Origin: Candidatus Levybacteria bacterium CG2_30_37_29
GTDB lineage: Bacteria; Patescibacteriota; Microgenomatia; Levybacterales; GWA1-39-11
Length of the DNA: 64,000 nucleotides
Reading direction: 5' to 3'
NCBI GenBank assembly: GCA_001873215.1
Contig: MNYS01000006.1
Span: forward strand, 56,839-120,838
The notes under the pieces are model-generated. The model was not told where the DNA came from. It saw only the letters and a list, made by a program, of their open reading frames with translations, and did not search any database. Position 1 is the stretch's first letter, and every line of letters begins with the position of its first letter. A program made the translations under genes and the position numbers. Of the stretch, positions 1-56,325 are shown in pieces.

Positions 1-117
1 TTTATCCCTTGTGTCTCAAATTCGCTTTGCTCATTTGAGCCAGCGGCGGGAATGACAACCTTCGCTCCGCTCAGAACGTCGCTTTTTCTCGTAAAACTCA
101 AAAAAGTCGTCCCCTTG

Positions 118-190
118 AGCCTTGATCGGGAATCGGACCCGAGACCTCTTTCTTACCAAGAAAGCGTTCTGCCACTGAACTACCAAGGCG
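118..190 (-). tRNA. tRNA-Thr (anticodon GGT)
   Basis: Reverse complement folds as a cloverleaf: acceptor GCCTTGG/TCAAGGC (one G-U), D-arm GTTC..GAAC, anticodon stem CTTTC/GAAAG with loop TTGGTAA (anticodon GGT), T-arm TCGGG-TCCGATT-CCCGA. Length 73 nt. Confidence 0.8.
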
Positions 191-238
191 TTCTACGTCA
201 GAGTTTATTTTATCAGGAAGAATTTTGAAATACCAATA

Positions 239-904
239 TTAAAGTAGGGGAATTTGCGAGATTGGACCGTATGCATCTCCCATTCCAAGCAAAAATCCTC
301 TTGCATAAATTTTTTTATGCCCCAATACTTGCTTATATGCATTTGCAAGTTGTGGTTGGGATGAGAGCATCTCTTCTGCTAAATAATTTGCACCGCTTAC
401 AATATTTGCAAGAATTTCAGGAAAAGGATAACCAACAGTTTTCATTCGTGCAAGTTCTGCAATTTTTTGCGGTGTAAGATTTTCTCTTTGAGTGTTGGTC
501 AGTTCGCAAAGAAGTCTGATGCTTCTCCTGCTTTCCGGAAGACCCAATAATCCACTCCAATATGCGTCAATTGCTTTTTTGGGGACTACAAAATTTTTGT
601 TTTCGTCTGCCTGTTGTTCTCTAAAAGCCTGATGAACAAATCTTTGCCCCACTTTGTATTGATACAAACATGATGTTTCCTCTGGCGCAACAAACAACTC
701 GCGAATAGAATGCATGCCGTCCAAAAAATGAGAAAAATCAGAATAAGGTCTATCGTGTTCTCTAAGCATAAAAGTTTGTTCGTCAACAAACGGTTTGTCA
801 ATACCGTCAAAAAGGCTTCCTTCCACAATAGTCTTGAAAGCGTGTTGTCCAGGCTTCTCTTTTAGAGGAATAGTTTTTCTTATTGGTTGTGATTCGTTAG
901 TCAT
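239..904 (-). CDS. hypothetical protein, downstream gene of a two-gene operon next to tRNA-Thr
   Basis: 221-aa ORF with a 4-bp ATGA overlap onto the upstream ORF 901-1638. No recognisable motif. Confidence 0.5.
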   Translation of the reverse strand: MTNESQPIRKTIPLKEKPGQHAFKTIVEGSLFDGIDKPFVDEQTFMLREHDRPYSDFSHFLDGMHSIRELFVAPEETSCLYQYKVGQRFVHQAFREQQADENKNFVVPKKAIDAYWSGLLGLPESRRSIRLLCELTNTQRENLTPQKIAELARMKTVGYPFPEILANIVSGANYLAEEMLSSQPQLANAYKQVLGHKKIYARGFLLGMGDAYGPISQIPLL

Positions 905-1638
905 GCTTTTTGATATTGTCCCAAGTCTTTGTCGTTTGAAGACGTGGCGTTAAACATCCGTTCAAGGGAGTCTCCGCTTTGAGTTTCACAAAAAATTCCA
1001 TGTGTGTCCCAAAAACCAAAAGTAAGAGATGACACATTCATTGTTCCTATCTGACCTTTTGCAGCAGAAAGAAACTTATAAAGAGTTTTTTCCTTTTCGG
1101 CATTTGCTCCGGATTTAGCATTTGATGTCTGTCCAATTGCACCGCCCATTTTTTTAATATACCAATTTGATGGATCTTGTCGGGCATAAAGTTCTTCAAA
1201 CAGTTTTATAGGACGCAGGCTTAATGAAGCATCCATATCTTGTTTGAAGCATTCAATTTCGGCAAGATTTGTCTCGCCCCAGTTTGTCAACAAATTTATA
1301 AAATATCTTTTTACATCACGTTCACCAACTTTTGGTACGGGAAGTCTATTTTTTCCTGCCTGCATTCTAATCGCCCTGTTGTAGAAAAGCGCGCCAACAT
1401 CAAACGCATTTGAATTCCAAAAAATATTTCCAACAGTTGCTCTTAAATCAGATAAATCGCTTAAAGTAGAATAGAGTAGACCATTTTCTTCTCTCATTAC
1501 ATTAGTTTCACGGTTAAATTCTGTTCTATCATCTTCTGCAAGAGGCAAGACAATTTGGCGTAAAGACATTTCAAGTGCGCCTTCCTCAATTGTGATTGGA
1601 TGATTTGGCTGGCCAATTCTTTCTATTTCTTTTGACAT
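901..1638 (-). CDS. hypothetical protein, upstream gene of the tRNA-adjacent two-gene operon
   Basis: 245-aa ORF translationally coupled to 239-904. No confident domain assignment from sequence alone. Confidence 0.5.
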   Translation of the reverse strand: MSKEIERIGQPNHPITIEEGALEMSLRQIVLPLAEDDRTEFNRETNVMREENGLLYSTLSDLSDLRATVGNIFWNSNAFDVGALFYNRAIRMQAGKNRLPVPKVGERDVKRYFINLLTNWGETNLAEIECFKQDMDASLSLRPIKLFEELYARQDPSNWYIKKMGGAIGQTSNAKSGANAEKEKTLYKFLSAAKGQIGTMNVSSLTFGFWDTHGIFCETQSGDSLERMFNATSSNDKDLGQYQKA

Positions 1639-1764
1639 GACGTGAATTATAGTACTAAATTATTCAATAATCAAAGGATAAAAAATATCTACGATCTAAG
1701 ATTTAAAAATAAGAAAGAGAACAGAAAAGGGGTTTGAAAGCAAAGCCAAACAATATGTTTGAGC

Positions 1765-2409
1765 TTACAACAGAAGGAGGGAAAAAAGTGCGCTGCCTGC
1801 CCCAAGCAATGCTCCGCCTACAACGTCAGTTGTCCAGTGTTCTCCTAAAGAAACTCGGGAAACAATCATAGAAATAACTAGTGTTAATATCATAGTATGT
1901 ATGAATAGTTTTATAGATTTTGAAAATTTTGAGTTGTAAAGAATAATTGAAAAAAGAACTCCCAAAAAAACAATACGCATAGAATGTCCTGATGGGTAAG
2001 ACGATTCGGTAAAAACGTGAAGCCCCGGAAATTCGGAAAATTGAGCCCTTAAAAACATGCGAGGAGGTCCGGGTTGCTCAAGTATGGTTTTGCCGATATA
2101 TTCAAGTACGTGTGCGGCGGAAAAAATTATTATAGGAACAAATCCTGTAAGTTTTCTTTTAAATAAAATAAAAATAAGAAGAATAAATGCTGTAAATTCA
2201 AAACGACCGACAACCGAAAGAATTGAGAAAAAAGTGTCAAATTTTACCGGAATCTTGCTTTGGACCCTAACGGTTGTATCAAAATCAAAACCTCTAAGCG
2301 TATCCGACCTAACAATAAGCGTAAAAACAAAAAACCCAACTAATAAGAAGAGGCTTATAAATAGATAGTATTTTTTGAGATTAGAGTGACTTTTTTCTTC
2401 TTTTGGCAC
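1765..2409 (-). CDS. PAP2-family membrane phosphatase (undecaprenyl-diphosphatase-like)
   Basis: Multi-TM protein carrying PAP2 signature blocks PSGHS...SRVSLGEHWTTDVVGG. Confidence 0.7.
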   Translation of the reverse strand: MPKEEKSHSNLKKYYLFISLFLLVGFFVFTLIVRSDTLRGFDFDTTVRVQSKIPVKFDTFFSILSVVGRFEFTAFILLIFILFKRKLTGFVPIIIFSAAHVLEYIGKTILEQPGPPRMFLRAQFSEFPGLHVFTESSYPSGHSMRIVFLGVLFSIILYNSKFSKSIKLFIHTMILTLVISMIVSRVSLGEHWTTDVVGGALLGAGSALFSLLLL

Positions 2410-2437
2410 AGCTATACTATCTTATCAAAATTTTAAA

Positions 2438-3703
2438 CTAAGTGTGGAGAGTATTCCTGTATTGTCTAATCAGTTCCAAATCTTCGTCTGAAGGATTTGT
2501 TGGATTTATGCCAAGAGATATTGCAGCTCTATAAATAGATGTTCTTGATGTTCCGGTTTCAACCGCAAGTTGCGCAATAGCTCCATTGGTCTTATGCGTT
2601 CCGCCCATTTCCAGAAGCTCTCTTCTGTAATTGCGTATCTTTTCAATATCCTCAGAAGACAAACGTTTTCTATCTTTAATATCCAGTCTATCAACATATT
2701 GACCCACTGATGAGGCAGAAACCCCAAACTCTTTTGCAAGCGAGAACATCGTGCCTTCCGAAACAGGCCTTCCTGCTCTGATAATTCCTTCGGCAGACTG
2801 CCTTTTATACTCTCTTATCTCTTCAACAACTTTCCAAGGAAGACTATTACCTTTATATCCAAGACGTTTTTTTATCTGATGCATGCGTGCACGCGTTAAT
2901 ACGTACTCTTTCCCAAGCATTTCAAGACTTATTGTTTCACGATATTGATCAAGCCAATAATTTATAATTTTTTTTCGTTGTCTTTTTGTCATACTGCTTG
3001 TTTCAAGCATTGCTCCAAATTGTTCAGGATTTGGCAACTGTCTACGATTTAAAATCCAAGGACAATCTTTAAATACAGTAGGATCTTTTCCTAAAATTTT
3101 TCCCGCCCCCAGCGCAAATTCATTTGTAACCATGCTTTTTTCAGCACGCTTTTCATCTCTTGATGCAATCTCATCTTTTATTTTCTGAGCCTGCTCCTCT
3201 GTAATAATCGCAGAAAATCCTAAACCTTTTCTTATCCTCCCAACCATAGTAACATTTGGAGATTTTTCTCTATTTGGCATATCCTCCGAACTTAAGCTTT
3301 GAGATAGTTGAGTGTCGGTAAACGTAACGCACGGAAGTTCTTTGGCAACTGTTCTTGGGACCAAAGGAGGAATTCTGCCGTAAAGTTTCCCTTTCTTTTC
3401 AAGTGTTATTGCAATTGTTTCTTCTACCGCATCAGCAAGAGAGGCTAATTCCGACTCTGTAGCACCGTTAATTTCTGCCCCCTGCAGCATTTGTTCAAGA
3501 GTGTAAAGAGAGGTATCTTCTGTTCTGTTTCTTCCTGTAACATGCAATGAATGCAAATTAAATTTTTCATCCATTTCCCTAGATGTAATTCCTCGCAGCA
3601 TACGAAAATCTTCCGCCCATTGTCCAATAGGGTTAAGAGGACGAAGGCGTTGAGTTTTAAATTGTGATTGATTTTCTCCAAATGCTTCAGGTGTTTTGCT
3701 CAC
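2438..3703 (-). CDS. hypothetical protein with three C-terminal helix-turn-helix (sigma-70 region-4-like) repeats
   Basis: 421 aa. C-terminal half contains three HTH-like units (LGKEYVLTRARMHQIKKRLG; MFSLAKEFGVSASSVGQYV; GAIAQLAVETGTSRTSIYRAAISLG). Confidence 0.55.
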   Translation of the reverse strand: MSKTPEAFGENQSQFKTQRLRPLNPIGQWAEDFRMLRGITSREMDEKFNLHSLHVTGRNRTEDTSLYTLEQMLQGAEINGATESELASLADAVEETIAITLEKKGKLYGRIPPLVPRTVAKELPCVTFTDTQLSQSLSSEDMPNREKSPNVTMVGRIRKGLGFSAIITEEQAQKIKDEIASRDEKRAEKSMVTNEFALGAGKILGKDPTVFKDCPWILNRRQLPNPEQFGAMLETSSMTKRQRKKIINYWLDQYRETISLEMLGKEYVLTRARMHQIKKRLGYKGNSLPWKVVEEIREYKRQSAEGIIRAGRPVSEGTMFSLAKEFGVSASSVGQYVDRLDIKDRKRLSSEDIEKIRNYRRELLEMGGTHKTNGAIAQLAVETGTSRTSIYRAAISLGINPTNPSDEDLELIRQYRNTLHT

Positions 3704-3734
3704 AAGGTTATTTTATCAAAATTCGCTCAAAACT

Positions 3735-4385
3735 TCAAACTCTGGGATACTTTTTACAGAACTCAGGGCGGTGTAGAGAAGAAAGACCGTGTTTTATAAT
3801 GGCATTTCGGTGAAGTAATGTTCCATATCCTTTATGTTTTTCAAACCCGTATTCCGGATACTCTTCAGAAAGTTTTACCATATAATTATCGCGGTGGACT
3901 TTTGCAATAATGCTTGCCGCGGCAATTGAGATAGAAGCGGAGTCGCCGCGAATAATATTTAATTGCTTACTTTTTTCAACAGAAGGAATACTAAAAGCAT
4001 CTGTTATAAAAAAAATATTTTTGTTGCCGATTTTTTCAAAAACTTTTTTTGCTATTTTTTCAAACCCCAAAGTTGTCGCTTTCCCTATGCCGATTTCATT
4101 TATTATACCAACGGAAATATATTGTAAATCCAAGTAAAATGTAAATTCTTGAATACTTTTATTGAGCAGTTCCCTTTTGTATCCACTTAGTTTTTTTGAG
4201 TCGTTTATTCCAAGATTTTGAAGCTTTTCCAGTTGTAGTTTGTTTAAATCCGGATGTAAAATAACTCCTCCAACAACAAGCGGTCCGGCAAAACACCCGC
4301 GTCCCACTTCGTCAATTCCGACAACAATAAATCCCTTATTCCATAAATCTTTTTCAATTTTAAGAGTCGGTAAATTCTTTTTCAT
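3735..4385 (-). CDS. rnhB: ribonuclease HII
   Basis: N-terminal GIDEVGRGCFAGPLVV motif and DSKKLS motif typical of RNase HII. 216 aa. Confidence 0.85.
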   Translation of the reverse strand: MKKNLPTLKIEKDLWNKGFIVVGIDEVGRGCFAGPLVVGGVILHPDLNKLQLEKLQNLGINDSKKLSGYKRELLNKSIQEFTFYLDLQYISVGIINEIGIGKATTLGFEKIAKKVFEKIGNKNIFFITDAFSIPSVEKSKQLNIIRGDSASISIAAASIIAKVHRDNYMVKLSEEYPEYGFEKHKGYGTLLHRNAIIKHGLSSLHRPEFCKKYPRV

Positions 4386-14688: not shown

Positions 14689-15072
14689 AGTGAATATATT
14701 TTACCATAGCATGGATAGAGAGTGGTTGTTTTTTTCTTGCGTCTTTTAAAAAAGACGCCCAAAACTTCTTGTGAATGAAGCCGGACTATTTTTGTTCGTT
14801 CACTTGTCGGGTGATTTCACCCCTTCCTCGATCCTTCGGACGAGGAATCCCCCTGACGCGTTCACTCACAAAAACTTTACGTCCTAATGCTTCAATCGCA
14901 AGGAGAAAATATGCTGTGAAATGGTGAATTTTTGCAAGATTTTTCCAAGAAAAAACCGCCCTTTGGCAAAACCCGTGTGACGTTGAGGTCACAGGAAATC
15001 GTTTGGGGCGGTTTTTCAACCAAGGGTCACGGTGACATGAGCTTCTCCTTGCGAAGAGTGGTGGTGCCAGAG

Positions 15073-15399
15073 CTAGTCAGGAACGCCAAGACAGAGCTTG
15101 AAGTCCATTCTGGTTATTTCGAGCCTGATCCGCTCTGCGAGTTGTCGTAGATAGAACTGGTCGAGGTCAGTCGTCAGCACGACGGCGTATTCGAAAGGAC
15201 CTGCGACGGTCGTAGTCACTTCGGCGGTTTTTCCCATCATCGCACGGATTTCGTGTGCGACGGTGTTAGCCGTTCCCTTCGTGACTTCGAAGATGGCGTA
15301 TCCTCTCACCAAAGATCTCTTCGATCGGGCTTCGAGCTTCTGTGGAAGACTTCGTCGGTCCACCCGGTGTACACGAGGATTACCTCGTTTCGAATCCAT
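15073..15399 (-). CDS. small protein resembling the Lrp/AsnC C-terminal (RAM/ACT-like) domain, inside the high-GC island
   Basis: GYAIFEVTKGTANTVAHEIRAMMGKTAEVTTTVAGPFEYAVVLTTDLDQF follows a beta-alpha-beta-beta-alpha-beta pattern. GC-rich codon usage unlike its neighbours. Confidence 0.4.
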   Translation of the reverse strand: MDSKRGNPRVHRVDRRSLPQKLEARSKRSLVRGYAIFEVTKGTANTVAHEIRAMMGKTAEVTTTVAGPFEYAVVLTTDLDQFYLRQLAERIRLEITRMDFKLCLGVPD

Positions 15400-15421
15400 C
15401 TGGCGAGCCTTTTGATGCTCT

Positions 15422-15721
15422 TCATTTTAACTTCCGAACGGGCTCGGTCCATCGCTCGATACAATTTCGCGCGGCTTTGTCTTCATCGCGTGCGAAATCA
15501 AGATCTGCGAGGATCTGGTTGACGGTGGCGTGATCGCCCGATGCGTCCGCGAGCACAGATGCTTCTCGTAGCTTGTACTCGAGATCGGCAACGTTCTGTC
15601 GCGCTTCGGCAAGAGCTGTGAGAGCCGAGTAGGCTTCCTCCATTGCGAATGCTACCTGTAGCATCATTCGGGATATACCTCTCCTAGTGTTCGATTGACC
15701 TGACGGATGTCTGTCCGGCAA
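15422..15721 (-). CDS. hypothetical Ala/Arg-rich protein (island)
   Basis: 99-aa helical ORF in the high-GC segment. Overlapping ORFs occur on both strands, so frame choice is uncertain. Confidence 0.3.
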   Translation of the reverse strand: MPDRHPSGQSNTRRGISRMMLQVAFAMEEAYSALTALAEARQNVADLEYKLREASVLADASGDHATVNQILADLDFARDEDKAARNCIERWTEPVRKLK

Positions 15722-16263
15722 GCTTGTCTATGAAGCTCTGAATCCTGGTGTCATCACCTGTTAGAGTAATGGTTGCCACCGTAGGACCAAAGCTTTTTCT
15801 CTGGATTCTAACCCCATCCGGGATGTGTTTGTTGACCCAGCTTGCCACGCGGGTTTGGACGAAGGAGGTGTAATGCACCTTGACTTTCGTTGTCTTGGTA
15901 AACACCTTTCCTCCTACTTGCCGCTGCCGAATGTTTGGCTGTTACCGATCTTAACGCCGTTTGGCTTGCGCCTTGGTTTTGTCGGCGGTTCGACCTTGAC
16001 TCCAGGGATTCCTGGTTTTGTCGTTCGTACGAACCTTGATGGATTATTTGCCACGGAATTGTCCCTCTCCTGCCCGTTTGCTATGTGGGATCTGCGTAGA
16101 AGCGAGATGTGACTGCCGGTTGAGAGAAGGTACACCTCCCCCAAGTGCACTTAACAAAGAGCGTCTTACCATTTTGGAGCTGGACGATCGTGTTAAGCCT
16201 CTTGCACTTTGGGCAAATGGTTTTTTTCCTTTTATCTCTCTTGGCCACCGTGTTTCCCTCCAT

Positions 16264-16497
16264 TCAGACGGTAAGCGTAAGGATCCGTTCGACGGCAAGC
16301 ATGATGCTGCCGATGAAGCTTAAAGCTGCTCCCGCAATAAACGTTATAGCGAGATTCTCGATGACCCAAGGCTCCCAAGAAGGAGATCCTCGAATTGAGA
16401 CGAATCGTTTCAACGAATAAAAAGTAAGAGCTGTAAGTCCCACAAAAGCTCCTCCAATCGTTGAACCCCAAAGTCCCAATATGAATACGACGTGCAC
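16264..16497 (-). CDS. small two-TM membrane protein (island)
   Basis: 77 aa with two hydrophobic helices. Confidence 0.35.
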   Translation of the reverse strand: MHVVFILGLWGSTIGGAFVGLTALTFYSLKRFVSIRGSPSWEPWVIENLAITFIAGAALSFIGSIMLAVERILTLTV

Positions 16498-16507
16498 GAG
16501 TCCCTCC

Positions 16508-16897
16508 CTAATGGTGGTTTTTGTGATAGTGTCCGAGAGTGAGCAGTCCGATGAAGACGGTTCCGATGACGACGCCGGTTATGGCCCGATAGTCAGTGTG
16601 TACTCCATTTTTGTAGGCGTTGTCGATGAGGACAGCGCCGCACAGAAGTGTTAGTACGATAATGGTTCCAAGCCTGTCAAAATAATCCAAGTCTCCCTCC
16701 CTGCGGGGTTGAAAGGTGGTCGTTGACGAGATGCATTGGCTTCCCTTGCCAATCTGACTGTTGATGAATTCATGTCTAAAACACGCGGATTCGCAAATAT
16801 GCAAATTGTCATCTGCTGTCCACGCGTGTGTGACCCAAGTTGTCAAAGAACAAAGCCAAATCCCAAAGCAGGGAAGTGGTCTTGCAAATTGACACAA
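16508..16897 (-). CDS. small membrane protein (island), start uncertain
   Basis: C-terminal half has two TM helices and a His-rich tail. N-terminal part is doubtful. Confidence 0.3.
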   Translation of the reverse strand: MCQFARPLPCFGIWLCSLTTWVTHAWTADDNLHICESACFRHEFINSQIGKGSQCISSTTTFQPRREGDLDYFDRLGTIIVLTLLCGAVLIDNAYKNGVHTDYRAITGVVIGTVFIGLLTLGHYHKNHH

Positions 16898-17162
16898 TCC
16901 CTAAAGACGGATTTGGCGATATAGATGCGATTATAGCACTTTATTAACAAGGAATCAAAAAGACTATAAGATTGTATTTGAGGCTATTGGATCCCAGCTT
17001 CGAACATTATATAGCCTATAGATATTTACTATACACACCCGAGTTCAAGTATCTTTAATAGCTCATAGTGATTTATTACATTTGCAGAGGCTTATAGAGG
17101 TTAGTTGTGTTAAGTAAATCTATCCTCTTGTCAAAACAATCAATGAACGATACTATAAATAT

Positions 17163-21404: not shown

Positions 21405-21467
21405 ATCAGTTAATTTTCAATTTTAAGTTTTAAGTTTGCGATGACTTTATAACTAGCGAACAATAAG

Positions 21468-21780: not shown

Positions 21781-21862
21781 ATTTTAAGTGAAATCTAAAT
21801 TTTAAAATTAAAGAATTAAAAATTCATTTAAAATTGAGAATTGAAAATTAAAAATTAATTTT
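21781..21862. repeat. AT-rich AATTGAAAATT-type repeat cluster (intergenic, upstream of galU)
   Basis: aaattgagaattgaaaattaaaaatt and related units. Same family as 25524-25557, 26742-26777 (inverted), 29848-29912 and 40201-40234. Confidence 0.55.
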
Positions 21863-22756
21863 ATGACTAAAATTAGAAAGGCTGTAATACCTGCGGCGGG
21901 CTTTGGAACCCGTTTTCTTCCTCAAACAAAAGCAATGCCCAAAGAAATGCTTCCGATAGTTGATAAACCAATTGTACAGTATATTGTTGAAGAGCTTGTT
22001 AATGCGGGAATTGAAGACATAATTATCGTTACGGGTTCTCACAAAAGGACAATTGAAGACCATTTTGACAGTCCATCTATGGAATTGGTAGAAAACCTTC
22101 GTATGGGTGGAGAAAAGAAGATGAAATTTTTGGAAGAAGCAGAAAGAATTGCTTCTATGGCCAATTTTATTTACGTCAGGCAAAAAGGCCCATATGGTAA
22201 TGGAACGCCATTATTAAACGTAAAGTCACTTATTGGCAATGAACCCTTTATTTATACTTGGAGCGATGACTTTATAAAAGCTCGTCCTAAATCACGTTTT
22301 CAACAGATGATTGAAGTTTATGAGAAGTATGGATGTTCGGTTTTGGCTTCTGTTAAGGCAAAAAGTGATGAGGATTATGATCGGTATGGTTTTGCAGGAG
22401 GGGAAGAAATTGAAGACGGACTTATTGATGCAAAAACCATTATTGAAAAGCCGGGGAAGCAAAATGCCCCTTCAGACCTTGCAACGGTCAGTGGATTTAT
22501 CTTTACTCCTGACATCTTTCAATATCTTGATGGTGCGCTCAATAATCTTCGTGAAGGGGACGAACTTTATTATAACGATGCATTGAAATTAATGCTGAAC
22601 GATAAAAAAAGAGTTTTGGCGTATGAAATAAAGGGTGGGAAATACTACGATACGGGTAATAAGTTGGAGTATATGAAAACTGTTGTTGAGTTGGCGTTGG
22701 AGCATCCGGACGTAAAAGAAGAATTCAAAAAATTTCTAAAAGACCTGAATCTATAG
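21863..22756 (+). CDS. galU: UTP--glucose-1-phosphate uridylyltransferase
   Basis: N-terminal AVIPAAGFGTRFLP.TKA.PKEMLPIVDKP is the GalU signature. Confidence 0.85.
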   Translation: MTKIRKAVIPAAGFGTRFLPQTKAMPKEMLPIVDKPIVQYIVEELVNAGIEDIIIVTGSHKRTIEDHFDSPSMELVENLRMGGEKKMKFLEEAERIASMANFIYVRQKGPYGNGTPLLNVKSLIGNEPFIYTWSDDFIKARPKSRFQQMIEVYEKYGCSVLASVKAKSDEDYDRYGFAGGEEIEDGLIDAKTIIEKPGKQNAPSDLATVSGFIFTPDIFQYLDGALNNLREGDELYYNDALKLMLNDKKRVLAYEIKGGKYYDTGNKLEYMKTVVELALEHPDVKEEFKKFLKDLNL

Positions 22757-23584
22757 TTCTTTCCCAAGATACTCTTTTGGCGCTATTTTAGCTTGTTCAG
22801 AAAATACAGCTTCTTCAATATTTTGCAAATTTCTTTGCCTCCATTTATCTCTTGTTTCATTTTCTTTTATATCAATTTTTGCTCTGTTTAATAATTCATT
22901 AAGCGTTATCGTTTCACCGTGAATTACTTTATATTTCTTAAACAACTTAAGACCTCTTACTTTTTTGTCGCCATAATTTTCAAGACCATTTATTTCAAAC
23001 GCGACAAAATGAATCCACGAATCCTCAATCGATACTCCGCGGTCATAAAGTCCTTTGATAAGACGCGTTACAACGCCATCTTTATCAAGTGTTAATTTTG
23101 GTTTTCTTGTTGCGTTTGATGCGACAACAACAATTCCACCGTCTCTAACGGTTGGCGCCGCCTCATCTAAATATTGAAGAGTTCCCTCACCGCGTTTCAA
23201 ATCATTTTCTCCTTTTTTGTCTGCGCGATATTTTGATTCAGGAGTGACGACCTTAATTGCTTTTACGCCAATAGATTTTGCAAACGGCAAAAGACCAAAA
23301 AATGCCTGATGTTTTGCAATTGGCGCTGTAATTTTTACACTTTTTGCTTGATTTTTTGTGATGCTGTCAATTGCCCAAAGAGGATCCGAAGTACTAAAAT
23401 GCATCTCAACAACTATTCCGCCTTTTCCCTGCCCTACATATTCGCAAAGTTTTTCAAGGCCACCAAAATCATCTACAGATCCTTCCGTTCTAAGAAGAGG
23501 ATGCCGCAATATTCCCCGCGCCGCTTCTCTCCAAACAACCTGCAAGGGATTTATTCCGGCAGATCTTTCTTGGGATTCTTTCAT
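22751..23584 (-). CDS. putative acyltransferase-like protein (HX4D motif)
   Basis: EMHFSTSD contains an H-x4-D motif typical of glycerolipid acyltransferases. Otherwise unassigned. Confidence 0.4.
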   Translation of the reverse strand: MKESQERSAGINPLQVVWREAARGILRHPLLRTEGSVDDFGGLEKLCEYVGQGKGGIVVEMHFSTSDPLWAIDSITKNQAKSVKITAPIAKHQAFFGLLPFAKSIGVKAIKVVTPESKYRADKKGENDLKRGEGTLQYLDEAAPTVRDGGIVVVASNATRKPKLTLDKDGVVTRLIKGLYDRGVSIEDSWIHFVAFEINGLENYGDKKVRGLKLFKKYKVIHGETITLNELLNRAKIDIKENETRDKWRQRNLQNIEEAVFSEQAKIAPKEYLGKEL

Positions 23585-23613
23585 AGAGTGGGATTATAGC
23601 ACAAAAGTCAATT

Positions 23614-23643
23614 ACCCTTGCCAAAAGAGAGGGGGTGCGGCCC
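23614..23643 (+). repeat. CCCTTGCCAAAAGAGG motif, copy 1
   Basis: ACCCTTGCCAAAAGAGAGGGGGTGCGGCCC. Related copies at 24324 and 25267. Confidence 0.6.
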
Positions 23644-23668
23644 TTAAAAGGAATTTAAAGTTGAATAG

Positions 23669-23697
23669 TTGACAATTTGCGAAACTATAGTAGAATA
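23669..23697 (+). promoter_or_regulatory. sigma-70-like promoter (TTGACA, ~16 nt, TAGAAT) upstream of the antitoxin gene
   Basis: Hexamers read directly in sequence ~45 nt upstream of the 23739 ATG. Confidence 0.4.
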
Positions 23698-23738
23698 TAT
23701 AGTAGATATATAATTAGACATATACTAAGGAGAAATAT

Positions 23739-24014
23739 ATGCAAACAACACAAGATAGAGTACAAAAATTAGTAACATTTTCCCCAAAGCTATATAACAG
23801 TGCTGTAGCCAGAGCCAACAGCCTGGGTATTCCCTTTGCTGAGTATGTCAGACACACGCTCATTAAAGATGTTGAGGAAAGCACAAGAAACCTACCAATG
23901 GTTGACTCCGGAACAGAGAAAAGAATTGGTCAAAGCCTTAAGGATCTGGAAGAAGGCAGATATACTGTTATTCGTGGCAAAAAAGAACTAGATTCTCATC
24001 TGGATAGCCTCTAA
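23739..24014 (+). CDS. type II antitoxin (RelB/ParD-like)
   Basis: 91-aa ORF ending 8 nt upstream of a RelE/ParE-like toxin gene. Confidence 0.55.
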   Translation: MQTTQDRVQKLVTFSPKLYNSAVARANSLGIPFAEYVRHTLIKDVEESTRNLPMVDSGTEKRIGQSLKDLEEGRYTVIRGKKELDSHLDSL

Positions 24015-24022
24015 AGCTTAGT

Positions 24023-24313
24023 ATGTTTACTCTTGTTTTTACCAAGAATTTTGATGAAACCTACGCTTCAGTTATTAAAGAAAACAAAGAAGTAGAAAAG
24101 AAAGCCAGAAAAGCATTACATTTTTTGGAACAAGATCCATTTTATCCCTCGCTTAAGACACACAAAGCTAATACCAAAAATTATGGAGAAAAATGGAGCA
24201 GTTGGGTAACCGGAGATATTCGTATTATTTGGGATTATGATACTGAAAAGAGATTAATTATTATCCTTTTAGATATAGGCAAACACAGCGGAACTCACAA
24301 AGTATATAAATAA
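24023..24313 (+). CDS. type II toxin, RelE/ParE superfamily
   Basis: 96 aa. Pattern ...LKTHK...WSSWVTGDIRIIWDYDTEKRLIIILLDIGKHSG..Y is typical of RelE/ParE/YoeB-fold toxins. Confidence 0.6.
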   Translation: MFTLVFTKNFDETYASVIKENKEVEKKARKALHFLEQDPFYPSLKTHKANTKNYGEKWSSWVTGDIRIIWDYDTEKRLIIILLDIGKHSGTHKVYK

Positions 24314-24323
24314 CATTCACTTT

Positions 24324-24351
24324 ACCCTTGCCAAAAAAGGGGCGTAAGTCC
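24324..24351 (+). repeat. CCCTTGCCAAAAGAGG motif, copy 2
   Basis: ACCCTTGCCAAAAAAGGGGCGTAAGTCC, 10 nt after the toxin stop codon. Confidence 0.6.
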
Positions 24352-24730
24352 TTCAATAACTCTTTTTTGAAAATAATTTCAAATCTAAACTCGAGGAATA
24401 GAAAACATTTGAACCAGGTTGTATTAGGTGCGGTAAATAAAAATCTACCGAGTCTACCAATAGGCGTTAAAGTTCTTTATTCTATCCGCCAGTTTTCTTC
24501 TTTACCCACGTAATGTTTTAGAACTATCTTAACAACTCGACCTATACTTCCCTTTGAAAAGAGACTGTGTGTGAATTCTCAAGACTTTCAATATACCCAA
24601 ATTAAAACAACCAGCCTGCAAACTACCGAGCATAGCTAACGATTATACTAGAGGCAAGGCGGAATTGTAAAGGAATCTTTGTCAGTTCTCGGCCTGAAAG
24701 CCTCGAAGGGTGAAGTGTGAGACTAATTCA

Positions 24731-25303
24731 TTATCTAAAAAGTCTAAAAAGATAATAAGGACCAGTATAAATTATAGTAGCTAGTCCATAGTATATATAA
24801 TATATTATTTTTGAAAGACCGAGAATGCCGATTATCGAAATGCTTAACAGCCATAATAAAACGATATATTTAAGTCTGAATTTTGAGAACACAACCATTG
24901 GAAATAGTATCGGTAGAGAATTTATGATTCCTATTGAAATAAAAAAAGCTAGCGTAGCGTAGAGTCCTAAACCAAATCCTGGGGTGCCGAGTCCAGTACC
25001 GCTCCCGGTTGCAGTGGCCGAAAAAAAGACAAGAATAACCCCAATTATTAATGATAAAATACATAGAACAATCGATGAGATAATTATTACTTTTCTAATC
25101 TTTCCATAACGATAGCTCAAGTAATTAAGACACAGAAGAATGAAAAAAAGTAAAAGAATAATTGGCGCAATTGTCCAAATATAATTCATATAAAACACTG
25201 ATCTATCCGTAAACATATTTACTCTCGCTAAATCCATTAAAACAAAGCTTGAGTTATATTGCAAATTCCCTTGCCAAAAGAGGAGCGCGCCGCACAAAAT
25301 CAT
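24731..25303 (-). CDS. hypothetical integral membrane protein (true start probably at an internal Met, ~25237)
   Basis: Five or six hydrophobic helices. The annotated 5' end overlaps repeat copy 3. Confidence 0.45.
   Translation of the reverse strand: MILCGALLFWQGNLQYNSSFVLMDLARVNMFTDRSVFYMNYIWTIAPIILLLFFILLCLNYLSYRYGKIRKVIIISSIVLCILSLIIGVILVFFSATATGSGTGLGTPGFGLGLYATLAFFISIGIINSLPILFPMVVFSKFRLKYIVLLWLLSISIIGILGLSKIIYYIYYGLATIIYTGPYYLFRLFR
25267..25293 (+). repeat. CCCTTGCCAAAAGAGG motif, copy 3
   Basis: TCCCTTGCCAAAAGAGGAGCGCGCCGC. Confidence 0.6.
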
Positions 25304-25340
25304 TGTTTCAAAACGTTTTTTAGGGTAAGATAAAGAGGCT

Positions 25341-27047
25341 ATGATGGATATAAAAGAACATATTGCAGGAAAACTTAAGGCGATTTTGACTGAATTAAAG
25401 TTTGAAGGTGTGCCGGAAATAAAAATATCGGATAATCCCGAGCATGGCGATTACTATACAAATTTAGCCATGCGTCTTGCAAAACAATCCGGAAAAAATC
25501 CACTGGAAATTGCCGAAGAGCTTAAATTGAAAATTGAAAATTTAAAATTGAAAATTCTCGACAGAGTCGAAGCTGTCAAACCGGGATTTATTAATTTTTG
25601 GGTTTCTGAAAAGTATCTGCTGGAAAATTTAAGTTCGATTGTTGACAAAAAAGAAGAATTCGGAAAAGGGAGTTTGTTCACAAGCAAAAAAGTAATGGTT
25701 GAATTTACGGATCCAAATCCTCTTAAGGAATTTCACATAGGTCATCTCTACAGTAATGCGGTGGGAGAGAGTCTTGCGCGTTTATTCGAGTCTCAAAGTG
25801 CGGAAGTTTGGAGAGTGTGTTATCAGGGGGATGTAGGACTTCATGTTGCAAAAGCGCTTTACGGAATATTAAATCACAGTGAAGGTATTAAGAGCTTTGA
25901 AGACAAACCGCTTTCGGTTCGCGCAAAATTTTTAGGCGAAACATATGCGGAAGGCGCAAAAGCTTATGAAAATGACGAAGATGCCAAAAAAGAAATTGAG
26001 AGTTTGAATAAAAAGGTATACGAGAAAGATGCATCTATTTTTCCTTTGTATGAAATAGCAAAAGGGTGGAGTCTTGAATATTTTGAGACGATTTATCAAA
26101 AACTTGGGACAAAGTTTAAACGCTATTATTTTGAATCAGAAGCAGGTGTTGTAGGTTTGAAAATTGTGAAACAACACATCGGCGATATTTTCGCAGAAGA
26201 TAAAGGCTCTGTCATTTTTCCAAAAGAAAAGTCAGGCCTTCACACGCGGGTTTTTGTAAATTCGTTGGGGCTTCCGACATACGAAGCAAAAGAGCTTGGT
26301 CTTGCGCCCACAAAATACAAAGATTTCCCCTACGACTTATCAGTAATTGTGACGGGAAATGAAATTAATGAATATTTTAAAGTTTTGCTGAAGGCTTTGT
26401 CATTGATCGAGCCTAGTTTGGCCGCTAAAACAAAACACATTTCTCATGGGATGGTTAGATTGCCCAGCGGAAAAATGTCCAGTAGAACAGGAGATATAAT
26501 TGCCGGAGACGCACTTATTGATGAAGTAGAGAATAGAATTCAGAAATCATATCCTGATGTTACAAAAGAGGTCATATCAAAAATTGCCGTTTGTGCCGTA
26601 AAATACGCACTTCTTAAGTCAAATATCGGAGGAGACATAACTTTCTCTTTTGAAGAATCTATTAATTTAAACGGAAATTCAGGACCGTATCTTCAATATA
26701 CGTATGTAAGGACGCAAAGTGTTCTGGGCAAGGCAAAAAATAATAATTTTCAATTTTCAATTTTAAATTTTCAATTAAATGAGGAAGAGTTAAATGTTCT
26801 AAGATTGTTATCAATATATCAACAAATTGCTTTAGAGGCAGCAGAAAAGTACTCACCTAATCTGGTTGCAAATTACCTTTTTGAACTATCTCAAAAGTTT
26901 AATCTTTTCTATCAGAAGCATTCTATACTTACGCCGGAAGAAGGTAAAGAGATTCGAGATTTTCGTTTAAGTTTAACTTCTGCCGTAGGCCAAGTCCTCA
27001 AAAACGGCCTTCAACTTCTCGGGATCGAAACGGTTGAGAAGATGTAA
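25341..27047 (+). CDS. argS: arginine--tRNA ligase
   Basis: Class I HIGH motif (HIGHLYSN), MSSR (KMSKS-type) motif, DALR anticodon-binding C-terminus. Contains two in-frame AT-rich repeat insertions (25524-25557 and 26742-26777). Confidence 0.9.
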   Translation: MMDIKEHIAGKLKAILTELKFEGVPEIKISDNPEHGDYYTNLAMRLAKQSGKNPLEIAEELKLKIENLKLKILDRVEAVKPGFINFWVSEKYLLENLSSIVDKKEEFGKGSLFTSKKVMVEFTDPNPLKEFHIGHLYSNAVGESLARLFESQSAEVWRVCYQGDVGLHVAKALYGILNHSEGIKSFEDKPLSVRAKFLGETYAEGAKAYENDEDAKKEIESLNKKVYEKDASIFPLYEIAKGWSLEYFETIYQKLGTKFKRYYFESEAGVVGLKIVKQHIGDIFAEDKGSVIFPKEKSGLHTRVFVNSLGLPTYEAKELGLAPTKYKDFPYDLSVIVTGNEINEYFKVLLKALSLIEPSLAAKTKHISHGMVRLPSGKMSSRTGDIIAGDALIDEVENRIQKSYPDVTKEVISKIAVCAVKYALLKSNIGGDITFSFEESINLNGNSGPYLQYTYVRTQSVLGKAKNNNFQFSILNFQLNEEELNVLRLLSIYQQIALEAAEKYSPNLVANYLFELSQKFNLFYQKHSILTPEEGKEIRDFRLSLTSAVGQVLKNGLQLLGIETVEKM

Positions 27048-55980: not shown

Positions 55981-56325
55981 AATATTTGTTTACATGAAAA
56001 AAAATTCCTCTGCTTCGTAGCTGTAAAAGGAATTCTTAAATATCTGACTATGGCAGTATATTATATTTCAATGAGCTTAAATTATCAAGGAAAATTATCC
56101 TTGATAATTCTGGCTTGAATTTTCAGCTTACTTCTGCTAGAATACAAATTAGATCCAGAGACAATAAGTTCTGCCAGCTGGCGGATTAAACAAGAAAGCT
56201 TATCGAGGAAACGTTCAGTTTAAAATTAAAAGTTTAAAGTGAAAAGTTGAAGCGTCTTTGGGAAGGCGCTTTTTTATTGGTTTTAAACTAATAACTAACG
56301 ACTAATAACTTTTAGCTAATAGATT

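What the first reader, a model, noticed from the sequence alone, without database searches (positions are those of the whole stretch)
23614..25293. RelE/ParE-type toxin-antitoxin cassette bracketed by a thrice-repeated CCCTTGCCAAAAGAGG motif
Directly visible: the motif (A/T)CCCTTGCCAAAAGAGG followed by a GC-rich tail occurs at 23614, 24324 and 25267, all on the plus strand. Copies 1 and 2 flank the antitoxin (23739-24014) and RelE/ParE-like toxin (24023-24313) pair precisely; copy 2 starts 10 nt after the toxin stop. Copy 3 lies 0.95 kb further on, beyond an ORF-free 200-bp stretch and a membrane-protein gene. Inference: these are boundaries of a small mobile cassette (recombination sites) or binding sites for a common regulator. 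Either way the TA pair looks like an inserted unit.
Basis: seen in the sequence. Interest (0 to 1): 0.5.

Follow-up and report, generated by a model that had tools for sequence, protein, structure and literature searches.

The report
Short repeat bounding acquired gene modules
A conserved 45-base DNA element sits at every boundary between small, horizontally acquired gene modules (here a toxin-antitoxin pair and a membrane-protein gene) in this candidate-phylum bacterium, and it does the same in an unrelated relative, which looks like a gene-cassette array of a kind not yet described, although nothing shows that the modules move.

Summary
Three same-strand copies of CCCTTGCCAAAAGAGG (0-1 mismatch) lie at 23615, 24325 and 25268. 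None occurs elsewhere in the 64 kb.

The window is a Candidatus Levybacteria genome (CPR). The motif is the core of a ~45-nt element, which I call W. W has a unique 5' half (CAyTTTACCCTTGCC) and a terminator-like 3' half.

The toxin has a RelE/YoeB/YafQ fold. The toxin-antitoxin (TA) module is horizontally mobile:
- Toxin homologues reach 91% amino-acid identity, while the nearest non-conspecific argS is 70%.
- A relative (L174) has the empty site, p277 and argS 77 nt apart, with no W.

W does not travel with this TA: seven homologous TA loci lack it.

An unrelated Microgenomates contig (L136) carries four same-strand W copies. They separate three single-transcription-unit modules, one of them a Fic pair.

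W is not an attC, a dif site, a known RNA, a coding sequence or a convincing promoter. No recombinase lies nearby, and no empty-site polymorphism exists in the population.

Best reading (confidence about 0.4): W marks junctions in an integron-like cassette array served by a recombinase acting in trans. The rivals are a terminator or insulator family, a REP-like mini-element and an operator.

The parts
22751..23584 (-). Left flank: p277, a conserved 277-aa CPR protein. Its invariant HFxxxDP and GG.V...R motifs look acyltransferase-like (inference). Its start lies 31 nt from W1. A TGCTATAAT box is followed 8 nt later by the ATG, a leaderless-like geometry.
   Evidence: ORF. No Pfam or NCBIfam hit. 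Family alignment. A 277-aa orthologue lies beside the W array in L136 and beside argS in L174.
23604..23652 (+). W1: first copy of the ~45-nt junction element (core 23615-23630, 1 mismatch). It lies between the divergent p277 and TA promoters.
   Evidence: Covariance model score 43.4 bits, E about 1e-11.
23669..23696 (+). TA promoter-like site TTGACA-16-TAGAAT, overlapping the direct repeat ATATAGTAGA x2 (probable operator).
   Evidence: (11 of 12 matches) and the sequence. The site is conserved in L165.
23739..24014 (+). Antitoxin gene (91 aa). It has no family hit and is identified by position. The C-terminal part co-varies with the toxin, while the N-terminal part and the promoter are swapped among homologous loci.
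   Evidence: DNA homology with L169-L172 starts at 23914.
24023..24313 (+). Toxin gene (96 aa), RelE/ParE superfamily, YoeB/YafQ-like fold.
   Evidence: Pfam YafQ_toxin E=7.8e-5, below the curated cut-off. Profile against PDB: YoeB E=0.02. AlphaFold model pLDDT 88.9; top Foldseek matches YoeB, YafQ and RelE with TM 0.70-0.72.
24314..24362 (+). W2: second copy (core 24325-24340, 1 mismatch). It starts 1 nt after the toxin stop codon.
   Evidence: Covariance model score 52 bits.
24357..24730 (.). ORF-poor spacer of the second module. On the minus strand, a TTTACA-18-TATAAT site (24671-24642) is followed 8 nt later by the ATG of a 34-codon ORF (24633-24529). There is no sign of a structured RNA.
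   Evidence: Rfam found nothing. Fold z-scores -1.0 and -0.6.
24731..25303 (-). Hydrophobic membrane-protein ORF. The longest form (190 aa) would read through W3. A later start (25237, 25216, or 25120 as some gene callers chose) is more likely.
   Evidence: Alternative 129-aa gene calls. No Pfam hit. No homologue in the held loci.
25257..25305 (+). W3: third copy (core 25268-25283, exact). Its 3' half is diverged. It lies between the divergent membrane gene and argS.
   Evidence: Covariance model score 44.6 bits.
25341..27047 (+). Right flank: argS (arginyl-tRNA synthetase), a core gene.
   Evidence: Pfam hits. 100% identical to proteins of Candidatus Levybacteria MAGs.

Best explanation
W is a ~45-nt junction element. 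Its consensus is (T)GCAyTTTA-CCCTTGCCAAAAGAG-GGGyGCrGyCCyTT-wAAAA. It separates small, independently transcribed, horizontally acquired gene modules in arrays, all copies on one strand, with n+1 copies for n modules.

Shown:
- In this Levybacteria genome, about 1.7 kb (W1 - YafQ/YoeB-like TA - W2 - spacer plus membrane gene - W3) has been gained between p277 and argS, compared with the empty site of a relative.
- The TA module is exchanged among CPR genomes.
- The same element bounds three other modules in an unrelated Microgenomates contig.

Inferred: W is a recombination (att-like) site at which modules are joined by a site-specific recombinase supplied in trans, in the manner of integron cassette arrays or Xer-dependent modules. 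The core has the geometry of a tyrosine-recombinase core site: 5-bp inverted arms CCCTT / GAGGG around a 7-nt spacer GCCAAAA, and that spacer is invariant in 9 of the 10 copies. The array here is old and fixed, not currently mobile.
For: - Non-random, clustered copies: three within 1.7 kb and none in the other 62 kb.
- Empty site without W in L174, and GalU-argS adjacency in L094, L011, L014 and L021.
- TA homology with L165 runs from 23656 (by eye from about 23645) to 24314, that is from the end of W1 to the start of W2.
- The TA is much more widely shared than core genes and sits in varied contexts.
- Independent replication: L136/L137 has four + strand copies (cores at 3687, 4447, 5959, 6906). 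They separate a 207-aa gene (+), a 458-aa gene (-) and a 63-aa+Fic pair (+), one transcription unit per interval, whatever the gene orientation.
- Single copies in L108 and L125. The L125 copy lies beside an orphan RHH gene, a ThsB-TIR gene and an Eco57I-like restriction-modification gene.
- The core is identical between genomes whose p277 orthologues share only 44% identity.
- The contexts are mixed (three divergent, three convergent, two tandem), which argues against a promoter or terminator role and for a junction role.
- No match in Rfam, the literature, plasmids or phages.
Against: - No recombinase or transposase was found among about 60 window ORFs, nor near W in L136 and L125.
- No empty-site or variant arrangement among the 46 same-species contigs read.
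- W is absent from seven homologous TA loci and from the empty site. Neither the TA nor the target demonstrably carries it.
- The sharp homology boundaries may only mark where selective constraint ends.
- The fourth L136 copy has a changed spacer (GGTAAAA).
- The 3' half of W looks like a terminator hairpin; in L125 it is a perfect bidirectional one.
- Only 10 copies from 4 genomes are known.
- The genome-wide frequency of W could not be measured.
Confidence: 0.4

Rival explanations
1. W is a family of (bidirectional) intrinsic terminators or transcriptional insulators. Each acquired module comes with one, or the host places one in each intergenic gap of the island. The copies resemble each other because they share an origin in one mobile gene pool.
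For: - The 3' half is an A-tract, a GC hairpin and a T-tract. In L125 the hairpin is AAGAGGGGC-GCA-GCCCCUUUU with -18.5 kcal/mol.
- On the minus strand every copy has the run CUCUUUUGG directly after the hairpin.
- W2, L136b, L136d and L125 lie downstream of converging or minus-strand genes.
- The 3' half alone matches generic terminator-like hairpins in plasmids.
- There is exactly one W per intergenic gap inside the arrays.
Against: - The most conserved part (CAyTTTACCCTTGCC) lies outside the terminator stem.
- The hairpin is degenerate or missing in W3 and L136a and has only 3 bp in several other copies.
- Folding energies equal those of shuffled sequences (z from -1.6 to +1.2).
- W1, W3 and L136c lie between divergent gene starts, where nothing needs terminating.
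- About 60 other gene ends in the window use other sequences, for example the terminator at 56250-56278.
- All copies share one strand, although gene orientation is mixed.
Confidence: 0.25
2. W is a REP-like or miniature selfish element: a conserved linear 5' part plus a GC hairpin, spread by a single-strand (HUH/Y1-type) transposase encoded elsewhere. It accumulates in the slack intergenic DNA of acquired islands.
For: - The architecture, a conserved 5' sequence followed by an imperfect GC palindrome of about 40 nt, resembles REP elements.
- Strict same-strand orientation within each array, here the G-rich strand of a uniformly skewed window, fits strand-biased ssDNA transposition.
- All copies are intergenic.
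- The distribution is patchy across genomes.
Against: - No Y1/RAYT or other transposase hit in the window.
- Only three copies in 64 kb and four in 9.9 kb, all clustered, with none in the other intergenic regions.
- The regular pattern of one copy per module boundary is not expected from random insertion.
- The hairpin is weak and shows no covariation.
Confidence: 0.15
3. W is the operator of a trans-acting DNA-binding protein, for example a silencer or regulator of acquired modules. It sits beside the promoters it controls.
For: - Conservation is at the sequence level, without structural covariation.
- W1, W3, L136a and L136c end 15-45 nt upstream of the promoter-like elements of the next + strand gene.
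- W1, W3 and L136c also abut the promoters of divergent minus-strand genes.
Against: - W2, L136b, L136d and L125 have no downstream + strand gene and lie at converging gene ends.
- Spacing to the -10 elements is not constant: 16 nt at p277 and 9 nt at the membrane gene.
- The core is only weakly symmetric.
- The element is missing from homologous TA promoters elsewhere, which keep their own operator repeats.
Confidence: 0.12

Closest known systems
Integron gene-cassette arrays / clusters of attC sites lacking an integrase (CALIN)
   Same: Arrays of small single-gene or single-operon modules (0.7-1.5 kb). They are separated by a repeated site, all copies in one orientation, with n+1 sites for n modules. 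TA modules and small unknown proteins are typical cargo. No integrase need be adjacent.
   Different: W is about 45 nt and is conserved in sequence. It lacks the RYYYAAC / GTTRRRY core sites. It lacks the long imperfect palindrome of attC: ssDNA folds are no better than shuffles. The modules carry their own promoters and lie in both orientations. No IntI was found.
Xer-dependent modules (pdif modules of Acinetobacter plasmids; IMEX elements integrated at dif)
   Same: Small modules, often TA pairs, bounded by short conserved recombination sites and moved by a host recombinase that is not encoded in the module. IMEX arrays show direct repeats of the site.
   Different: W has no 11-6-11 dif architecture. 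The copies are direct, not alternating in orientation. The array does not lie at a GC-skew switch.
REP/BIME elements and their RAYT transposases
   Same: A short, GC-rich intergenic repeat that can form a hairpin, with a conserved 5' single-stranded part.
   Different: Copy number is very low and clustered, with one copy per module boundary. No RAYT was found. The palindrome is weak.
Rho-independent (bidirectional) terminators
   Same: The 3' half is an A-tract, a GC hairpin and a T-tract. Some copies follow gene ends.
   Different: The conserved 5' half lies outside the stem. The hairpin is degenerate in several copies. Some copies lie between divergent promoters.
Type II toxin-antitoxin systems of the RelE/ParE superfamily (YafQ-DinJ, YoeB-YefM)
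   Same: A two-gene operon, antitoxin first, with an 8-nt gap. The 96-aa toxin has the RelE/YoeB/YafQ fold. The promoter carries repeat operators.
   Different: Sequence matches fall below the curated family cut-offs. The antitoxin has no recognisable family. Activity is untested.

Membership tests
Type II TA toxin, RelE/ParE superfamily (YafQ/YoeB-like) | Small toxin with the RelE-type alpha/beta fold | tested here: met
   AlphaFold model has pLDDT 88.9. Foldseek against PDB: YoeB 2a6r E=1e-5, TM 0.71; DinJ-YafQ 9lew TM 0.72; RelE and ParE lower.
Type II TA toxin, RelE/ParE superfamily (YafQ/YoeB-like) | Sequence match to a curated family model above its cut-off | tested here: not met
   PF15738 YafQ_toxin scores 23.3 bits against a cut-off of 30. 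TIGR02116 scores 20.0 against 51.8, and TIGR02385 scores 18.6 against 27.9. The profile of 31 homologues against PDB gives YoeB at E=0.02. Several homologues carry a precomputed PF15738 hit and YafQ or RelE names from their sources.
Type II TA toxin, RelE/ParE superfamily (YafQ/YoeB-like) | Adjacent upstream small antitoxin gene in one operon with an autoregulated promoter | tested here: met
   A 91-aa ORF ends 8 nt before the toxin ATG. A TTGACA-16-TAGAAT site with direct repeats lies upstream. The pair is conserved in all 7 homologous loci. Autoregulation itself was not tested.
Type II TA toxin, RelE/ParE superfamily (YafQ/YoeB-like) | Ribosome-dependent mRNA cleavage activity and its catalytic residues | not testable with these tools
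   H47, R67 and H88 are invariant in the family alignment. They were not mapped onto a solved active site.
Integron attC / cassette array | R'' (RYYYAAC) and R' (GTTRRRY) core sites at the ends of each site | tested here: not met
   Read. Only W1 has a GTTGAAT downstream; no copy has both sites.
Integron attC / cassette array | Imperfect palindrome of 57-141 nt that folds as single-stranded DNA | tested here: not met
   ssDNA folds of whole inter-module gaps on both strands give z from -1.65 to +1.15. Only a 5-bp hairpin recurs.
Integron attC / cassette array | Integron integrase (IntI) with attI at one end of the array | tested here: not met
   No recombinase Pfam hit among the window ORFs or the L136 ORFs. 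CALINs lack one too, so this alone does not exclude the family.
Integron attC / cassette array | Array of single-ORF cassettes separated by co-oriented sites | tested here: met
   Window: 3 sites and 2 modules. L136: 4 sites and 3 modules. All sites lie on one strand.
Xer/dif-type sites (IMEX, pdif modules) | 28-31-bp site with two ~11-bp inverted arms and a 6-8-bp spacer | tested here: not met
   W has only 4-5-bp inverted arms (CCCTT/GAGGG) around 7 nt.
Xer/dif-type sites (IMEX, pdif modules) | Chromosomal site located at the replication terminus (GC-skew switch) | tested here: not met
   Cumulative GC skew rises steadily from about 4 kb to 64 kb, with no switch near 24 kb.
REP elements / RAYT | High genomic copy number, dispersed in intergenic regions | tested here: inconclusive
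   3 clustered copies in 64 kb and 0 in about 60 other intergenic regions. The rest of the genome could not be scanned.
REP elements / RAYT | Cognate Y1 (RAYT) transposase gene in the genome | tested here: inconclusive
   None in the window. The rest of the genome was not available.
Rho-independent terminator | Stable GC-rich hairpin followed directly by a U-run | tested here: inconclusive
   Met in L125 and, weakly, in L136b. Only 3-bp stems in W1, W2 and L136c. Absent in W3 and L136a. The terminator scan found none at W.
Known RNA families (Rfam 15) | Covariance-model match | tested here: not met
   No hit at gathering thresholds in the window or in 8 W-bearing loci. Only E>6 noise in 23500-25400.

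The most novel reading that the evidence does not exclude
W defines a previously undescribed cassette-array system of CPR/Microgenomates bacteria. Single-gene defence and addiction modules (TA, Fic, small membrane proteins) are captured one after another at a ~17-bp 5-7-5 core site by a recombinase encoded elsewhere in the genome. This would be a functional analogue of integrons or Xer-dependent modules, with an unrelated site.
Probability: 0.2. Interest if true: 0.8.

Novelty: new variant of a known kind. Interest (0 to 1): 0.55.

Why it matters
CPR bacteria have tiny genomes, few recognisable mobile elements and no known integrons, yet their accessory genes (TA, Fic, defence systems) turn over quickly. 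A short conserved site that marks every boundary in small arrays of such modules, in two distantly related genomes, would give a concrete handle on how these organisms acquire and organise accessory genes. It would also give a searchable signature for finding such arrays and the recombinase behind them. If W turns out to be only a shared terminator, it is still a useful marker of a common mobile gene pool among co-resident CPR lineages.

Tried and rejected
1. Coding explanation. The reverse complement reads ...P-L-F-W-Q-G-stop in several copies, and the GC tail would supply Gly/Ala/Pro codons. Rejected: there are no long ORFs, an in-frame stop lies 9 codons upstream in L136c, copy 3 has no stop, and part of the pattern was forced by my own search pattern.
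2. Sigma-54 promoter on the minus strand (TGGCA...TTGCA). Rejected: the GG-GC spacing is 11-12 nt, not 10, and the -12 element is absent in most copies.
3. Sigma-70 promoter using TTGCCA as the -35. Only copy 3 passes the scan (9 of 12). The -10 candidates are poor, whereas real promoters nearby are near-consensus.
4. Antiterminator/terminator switch. Rejected: W1 has no upstream + strand promoter.
5. attC, dif and REP: see the membership tests.
6. DNA uptake sequence. Rejected: far too rare.
7. Conserved argS or p277 regulatory site. Rejected: absent from 80 CPR argS loci (1.2 Mb), from four closer argS loci and from L174.
8. Known ncRNA in the ORF-poor stretch. Rfam found nothing, and the fold z-scores are -1.0 and -0.6.
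9. Outer-stem covariation (TGC/GCA, ACTT/AAGT, ACT/AGT). Seen by eye in single folds, but RNAalifold supports only the invariant 5-bp stem, with no compensatory change.
10. Viral scan. It returned only one phage coding-sequence family that contains the 18-mer by chance.
11. Most of the 46 metagenome hits are chance or coding matches, for example rplQ in L135 and a plant-like expansin in L124.
12. Flanking direct repeats as a general property of this TA family. They exceed shuffles only in the window and in L165, where the repeat is AT-rich and low-complexity.
13. A possible fourth degenerate copy at 24551 (CCCTTTGAAAAGAGA). The covariance model does not support it.
14. Literature search. It found nothing relevant.
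Full report
**Observation.** The sequence and a pattern search confirm three + strand copies of CCCTTGCCAAAAGAGG. They lie at 23615 (1 mismatch), 24325 (1 mismatch) and 25268 (exact). With up to 3 mismatches, 5 sites were found against 0.58 expected from shuffles; the two 3-mismatch sites look like chance. A profile HMM and a covariance model built later find only these three copies in the 64 kb. The stretch 24357-24730 has no ORF longer than 61 codons. All the same-species contigs from independent metagenome assemblies that I read show the same gene order, and the ten aligned over these 1.8 kb are 99.9-100% identical. The arrangement is therefore real and fixed in the population.

**Organism and genes.** The argS protein is 100% identical to proteins of Candidatus Levybacteria MAGs (CPR, Microgenomates). 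The next relatives reach only 70% identity.
- The toxin matches YafQ, YoeB and RelE family models only below their cut-offs.
- A profile of 31 toxin homologues hits YoeB in the PDB at E=0.02.
- A confident AlphaFold model (pLDDT 88.9) superposes on YoeB, YafQ and RelE with TM 0.70-0.72.

The label 'RelE/ParE-type' is therefore correct at the fold level. The antitoxin has no family hit and is identified by position. A near-consensus promoter, TTGACA-16-TAGAAT, with direct repeats precedes the pair.

**The TA pair is an insertion.**
- In CPR relatives, GalU is directly followed by argS (L094, L011, L014, L021).
- The closest relative that carries the flanking gene p277 (L174: p277 78%, argS 68-69%) has p277 and argS divergent and only 77 nt apart. 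It has no TA, no membrane gene and no motif. The window lineage has therefore gained about 1.7 kb, and all three motif copies lie inside the gained DNA.
- The TA module is mobile over evolutionary time. Toxin homologues reach 91% amino-acid identity, far above core genes, and sit in unrelated contexts, often among other TA and Fic genes.
- One contig (L165) shares 84% nucleotide identity with exactly 23656-24314, that is promoter, antitoxin and toxin. By eye, the homology starts at the A-run that ends copy 1, and it stops one base after the toxin stop codon, where copy 2 begins.

**What the motif is.** Aligning the copies with matches found in a metagenome scan shows an element of about 45 nt, which I call W. 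Its consensus is (T)GCAyTTTA-CCCTTGCCAAAAGAG-GGGyGCrGyCCyTT-wAAAA.
- The 5' half has no match anywhere else.
- The 3' half resembles a GC hairpin flanked by A- and T-tracts. In L125 it is a perfect bidirectional terminator-like hairpin. On its own it matches generic terminator hairpins in plasmids only at E of about 2.
- RNAalifold supports only a 5-bp hairpin, CCCUU/GAGGG, with loop GCCAAAA and no compensatory change.
- Single-copy RNA and ssDNA folds are no more stable than shuffles.
- Rfam has nothing, and the literature search found nothing.

**W does not belong to this TA.** Seven homologous TA loci (L026, L165, L169-L173) lack W. Only the window and L165 have flanking direct repeats above shuffle expectation, and the L165 repeat is an AT-rich, low-complexity sequence. 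W is also absent from 1.2 Mb of CPR argS loci and from the closer relatives.

**W bounds other modules elsewhere.** This is the key result. An unrelated contig carries four + strand copies of W, with cores at 3687, 4447 (diverged, spacer GGTAAAA), 5959 and 6906. The contig is L136, identical to L137; its GC is 0.42, and its 277-aa p277 orthologue is 44% identical to the window's.
- These copies separate three single transcription units: a 207-aa gene (+), a 458-aa gene (-), and a 63-aa ORF plus a Fic-domain gene (+).
- The array starts beside a tRNA gene and a displaced tRNA 3' fragment.
- The intervals are 760, 1512 and 947 nt. In the window they are 710 and 943 nt.
- Single copies occur in L108 and in L125. 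The L125 copy lies next to an orphan RHH gene, a ThsB-TIR gene and an Eco57I-like restriction-modification gene.

Across the ten copies the contexts are mixed. W1, W3 and L136c lie between divergent gene starts. W2, L136b and L136d lie between converging gene ends. L136a and L125 lie in tandem settings. All copies within an array share one strand.

**Mechanism.** The pattern is one co-oriented site per module boundary and n+1 sites for n modules. The cargo is typical of cassettes, no recombinase lies in cis, and the core is identical between genomes whose core proteins are about 44% identical. This fits best with W being a junction or recombination site of a cassette-type array that is served in trans. 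The core has the 5-7-5 geometry of a tyrosine-recombinase core site, and its 7-nt spacer is invariant in 9 of 10 copies. This step is inference. I put it at about 0.4, for these reasons:
- No recombinase or transposase was detected among about 60 window ORFs or near W elsewhere.
- No excision or empty-site polymorphism exists in the population.
- Neither the TA elsewhere nor the empty target carries W.
- The sharp homology edges could simply mark the limits of selective constraint.

**Tests of known families.**
- attC fails: no R''/R' core sites and no long ssDNA palindrome.
- dif/Xer fails: no 11-6-11 architecture, and no GC-skew switch near the array.
- REP is doubtful: low, clustered copy number and no RAYT in the window.
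- Plain terminator is doubtful: the conserved part lies outside the stem, some copies sit between divergent promoters, and the hairpin is degenerate in several copies.

The rivals keep substantial weight: terminator or insulator family 0.25, REP-like mini-element 0.15, operator 0.12.

**The ORF-poor stretch 24357-24730.** There is no Rfam hit and no unusual folding. On the minus strand, a near-consensus TTTACA-18-TATAAT site (24671-24642) is followed after 8 nt by the ATG of a 34-codon ORF (24633-24529). The same TATAAT-8-nt-ATG geometry is seen at p277, at p277 of L174 and at the 63-aa ORF of L136. This suggests leaderless transcripts. It is unverified.

**Verdict.** 'TA is an inserted unit' is supported. 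'The motif is the TA cassette's own boundary' is not supported. 'The motif marks boundaries of acquired modules' is supported by an independent array. It is a new variant of a known kind, a site-bounded gene-cassette array, with the mechanism unproven. The decisive tests are whole-genome and pan-CPR scans for W with recombinase co-occurrence, searches of read data for excision junctions, and transcript end mapping.

Noticed in passing
window 15000-17000: A GC-rich island (GC 0.46-0.54 against 0.37 background) of about 2 kb. It holds only short ORFs without Pfam hits and has no Rfam match at E<=1. It could be foreign DNA or an undescribed structured RNA.
   Followed up: partly
window 23582-23604 (-), 24631-24671 (-); L174 2110-2138; L136 6008-6028: A recurrent TATAAT - 8 nt - ATG geometry, often with an extended -10 (TGn), at p277, at a 34-codon ORF, at the p277 orthologue of L174 and at a 63-aa ORF of L136. 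It suggests leaderless mRNAs in these CPR genomes.
   Followed up: partly
window 25532-25556 and 26752-26776 (inside argS); also 21411-21442 and 21798-21856: A perfect 25-nt inverted repeat of an AATTGAAAATT-type low-complexity unit lies within the argS coding sequence, 1.2 kb apart. Both arms are in frame (LKLKIENLKLKIL and NFQFSILNFQLN). Related copies lie in the intergenic DNA upstream of GalU.
   Followed up: no
window 23739-23913 compared with L169-L172: Nucleotide homology with four TA loci whose toxins are 84-91% identical begins only at 23914, inside the antitoxin gene. The antitoxin N-terminal (DNA-binding) part and the promoter have therefore been swapped independently of the toxin-binding part and the toxin.
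   Followed up: partly
window 1-4000: Cumulative GC skew has its minimum near 2-4 kb and rises steadily to 64 kb. A replication origin may lie near the left end of the window.
   Followed up: no
L165 3562-3619, 4407-4443, 5665-5722 and 6876-7731: In the contig that shares the TA module, an AT-rich repeat (CAGCnnTTAGTTATTAGTTA) flanks the TA and the next gene (Fic-HTH). Arrays of a 9-nt unit (CCTATTGGT) surround a 23S_rRNA_IVP-family gene.
   Followed up: partly
L136 3441-3521 and 3643-3665: A tRNA gene is followed 120 nt later by a displaced tRNA 3'-end fragment (GGTTCAAATCCTCTCC...), immediately left of the first W copy. This is the signature of an old integrase-type insertion at the edge of the W array.
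   Followed up: no
L136 8450-9283; window 22751-23584: The uncharacterised 277-aa protein p277 lies beside the W array in both genomes. It has invariant HFxxxDP and GG.V...R motifs, which look acyltransferase-like. In several relatives it is absent from the GalU-argS junction, so it may itself be part of the variable region.
   Followed up: partly
L125 5207-13888: The single W copy in L125 lies beside a defence-type cluster: DUF2779, ThsB-like TIR, an Eco57I/MmeI-like restriction-modification fusion and a further 971-aa ORF.
   Followed up: no
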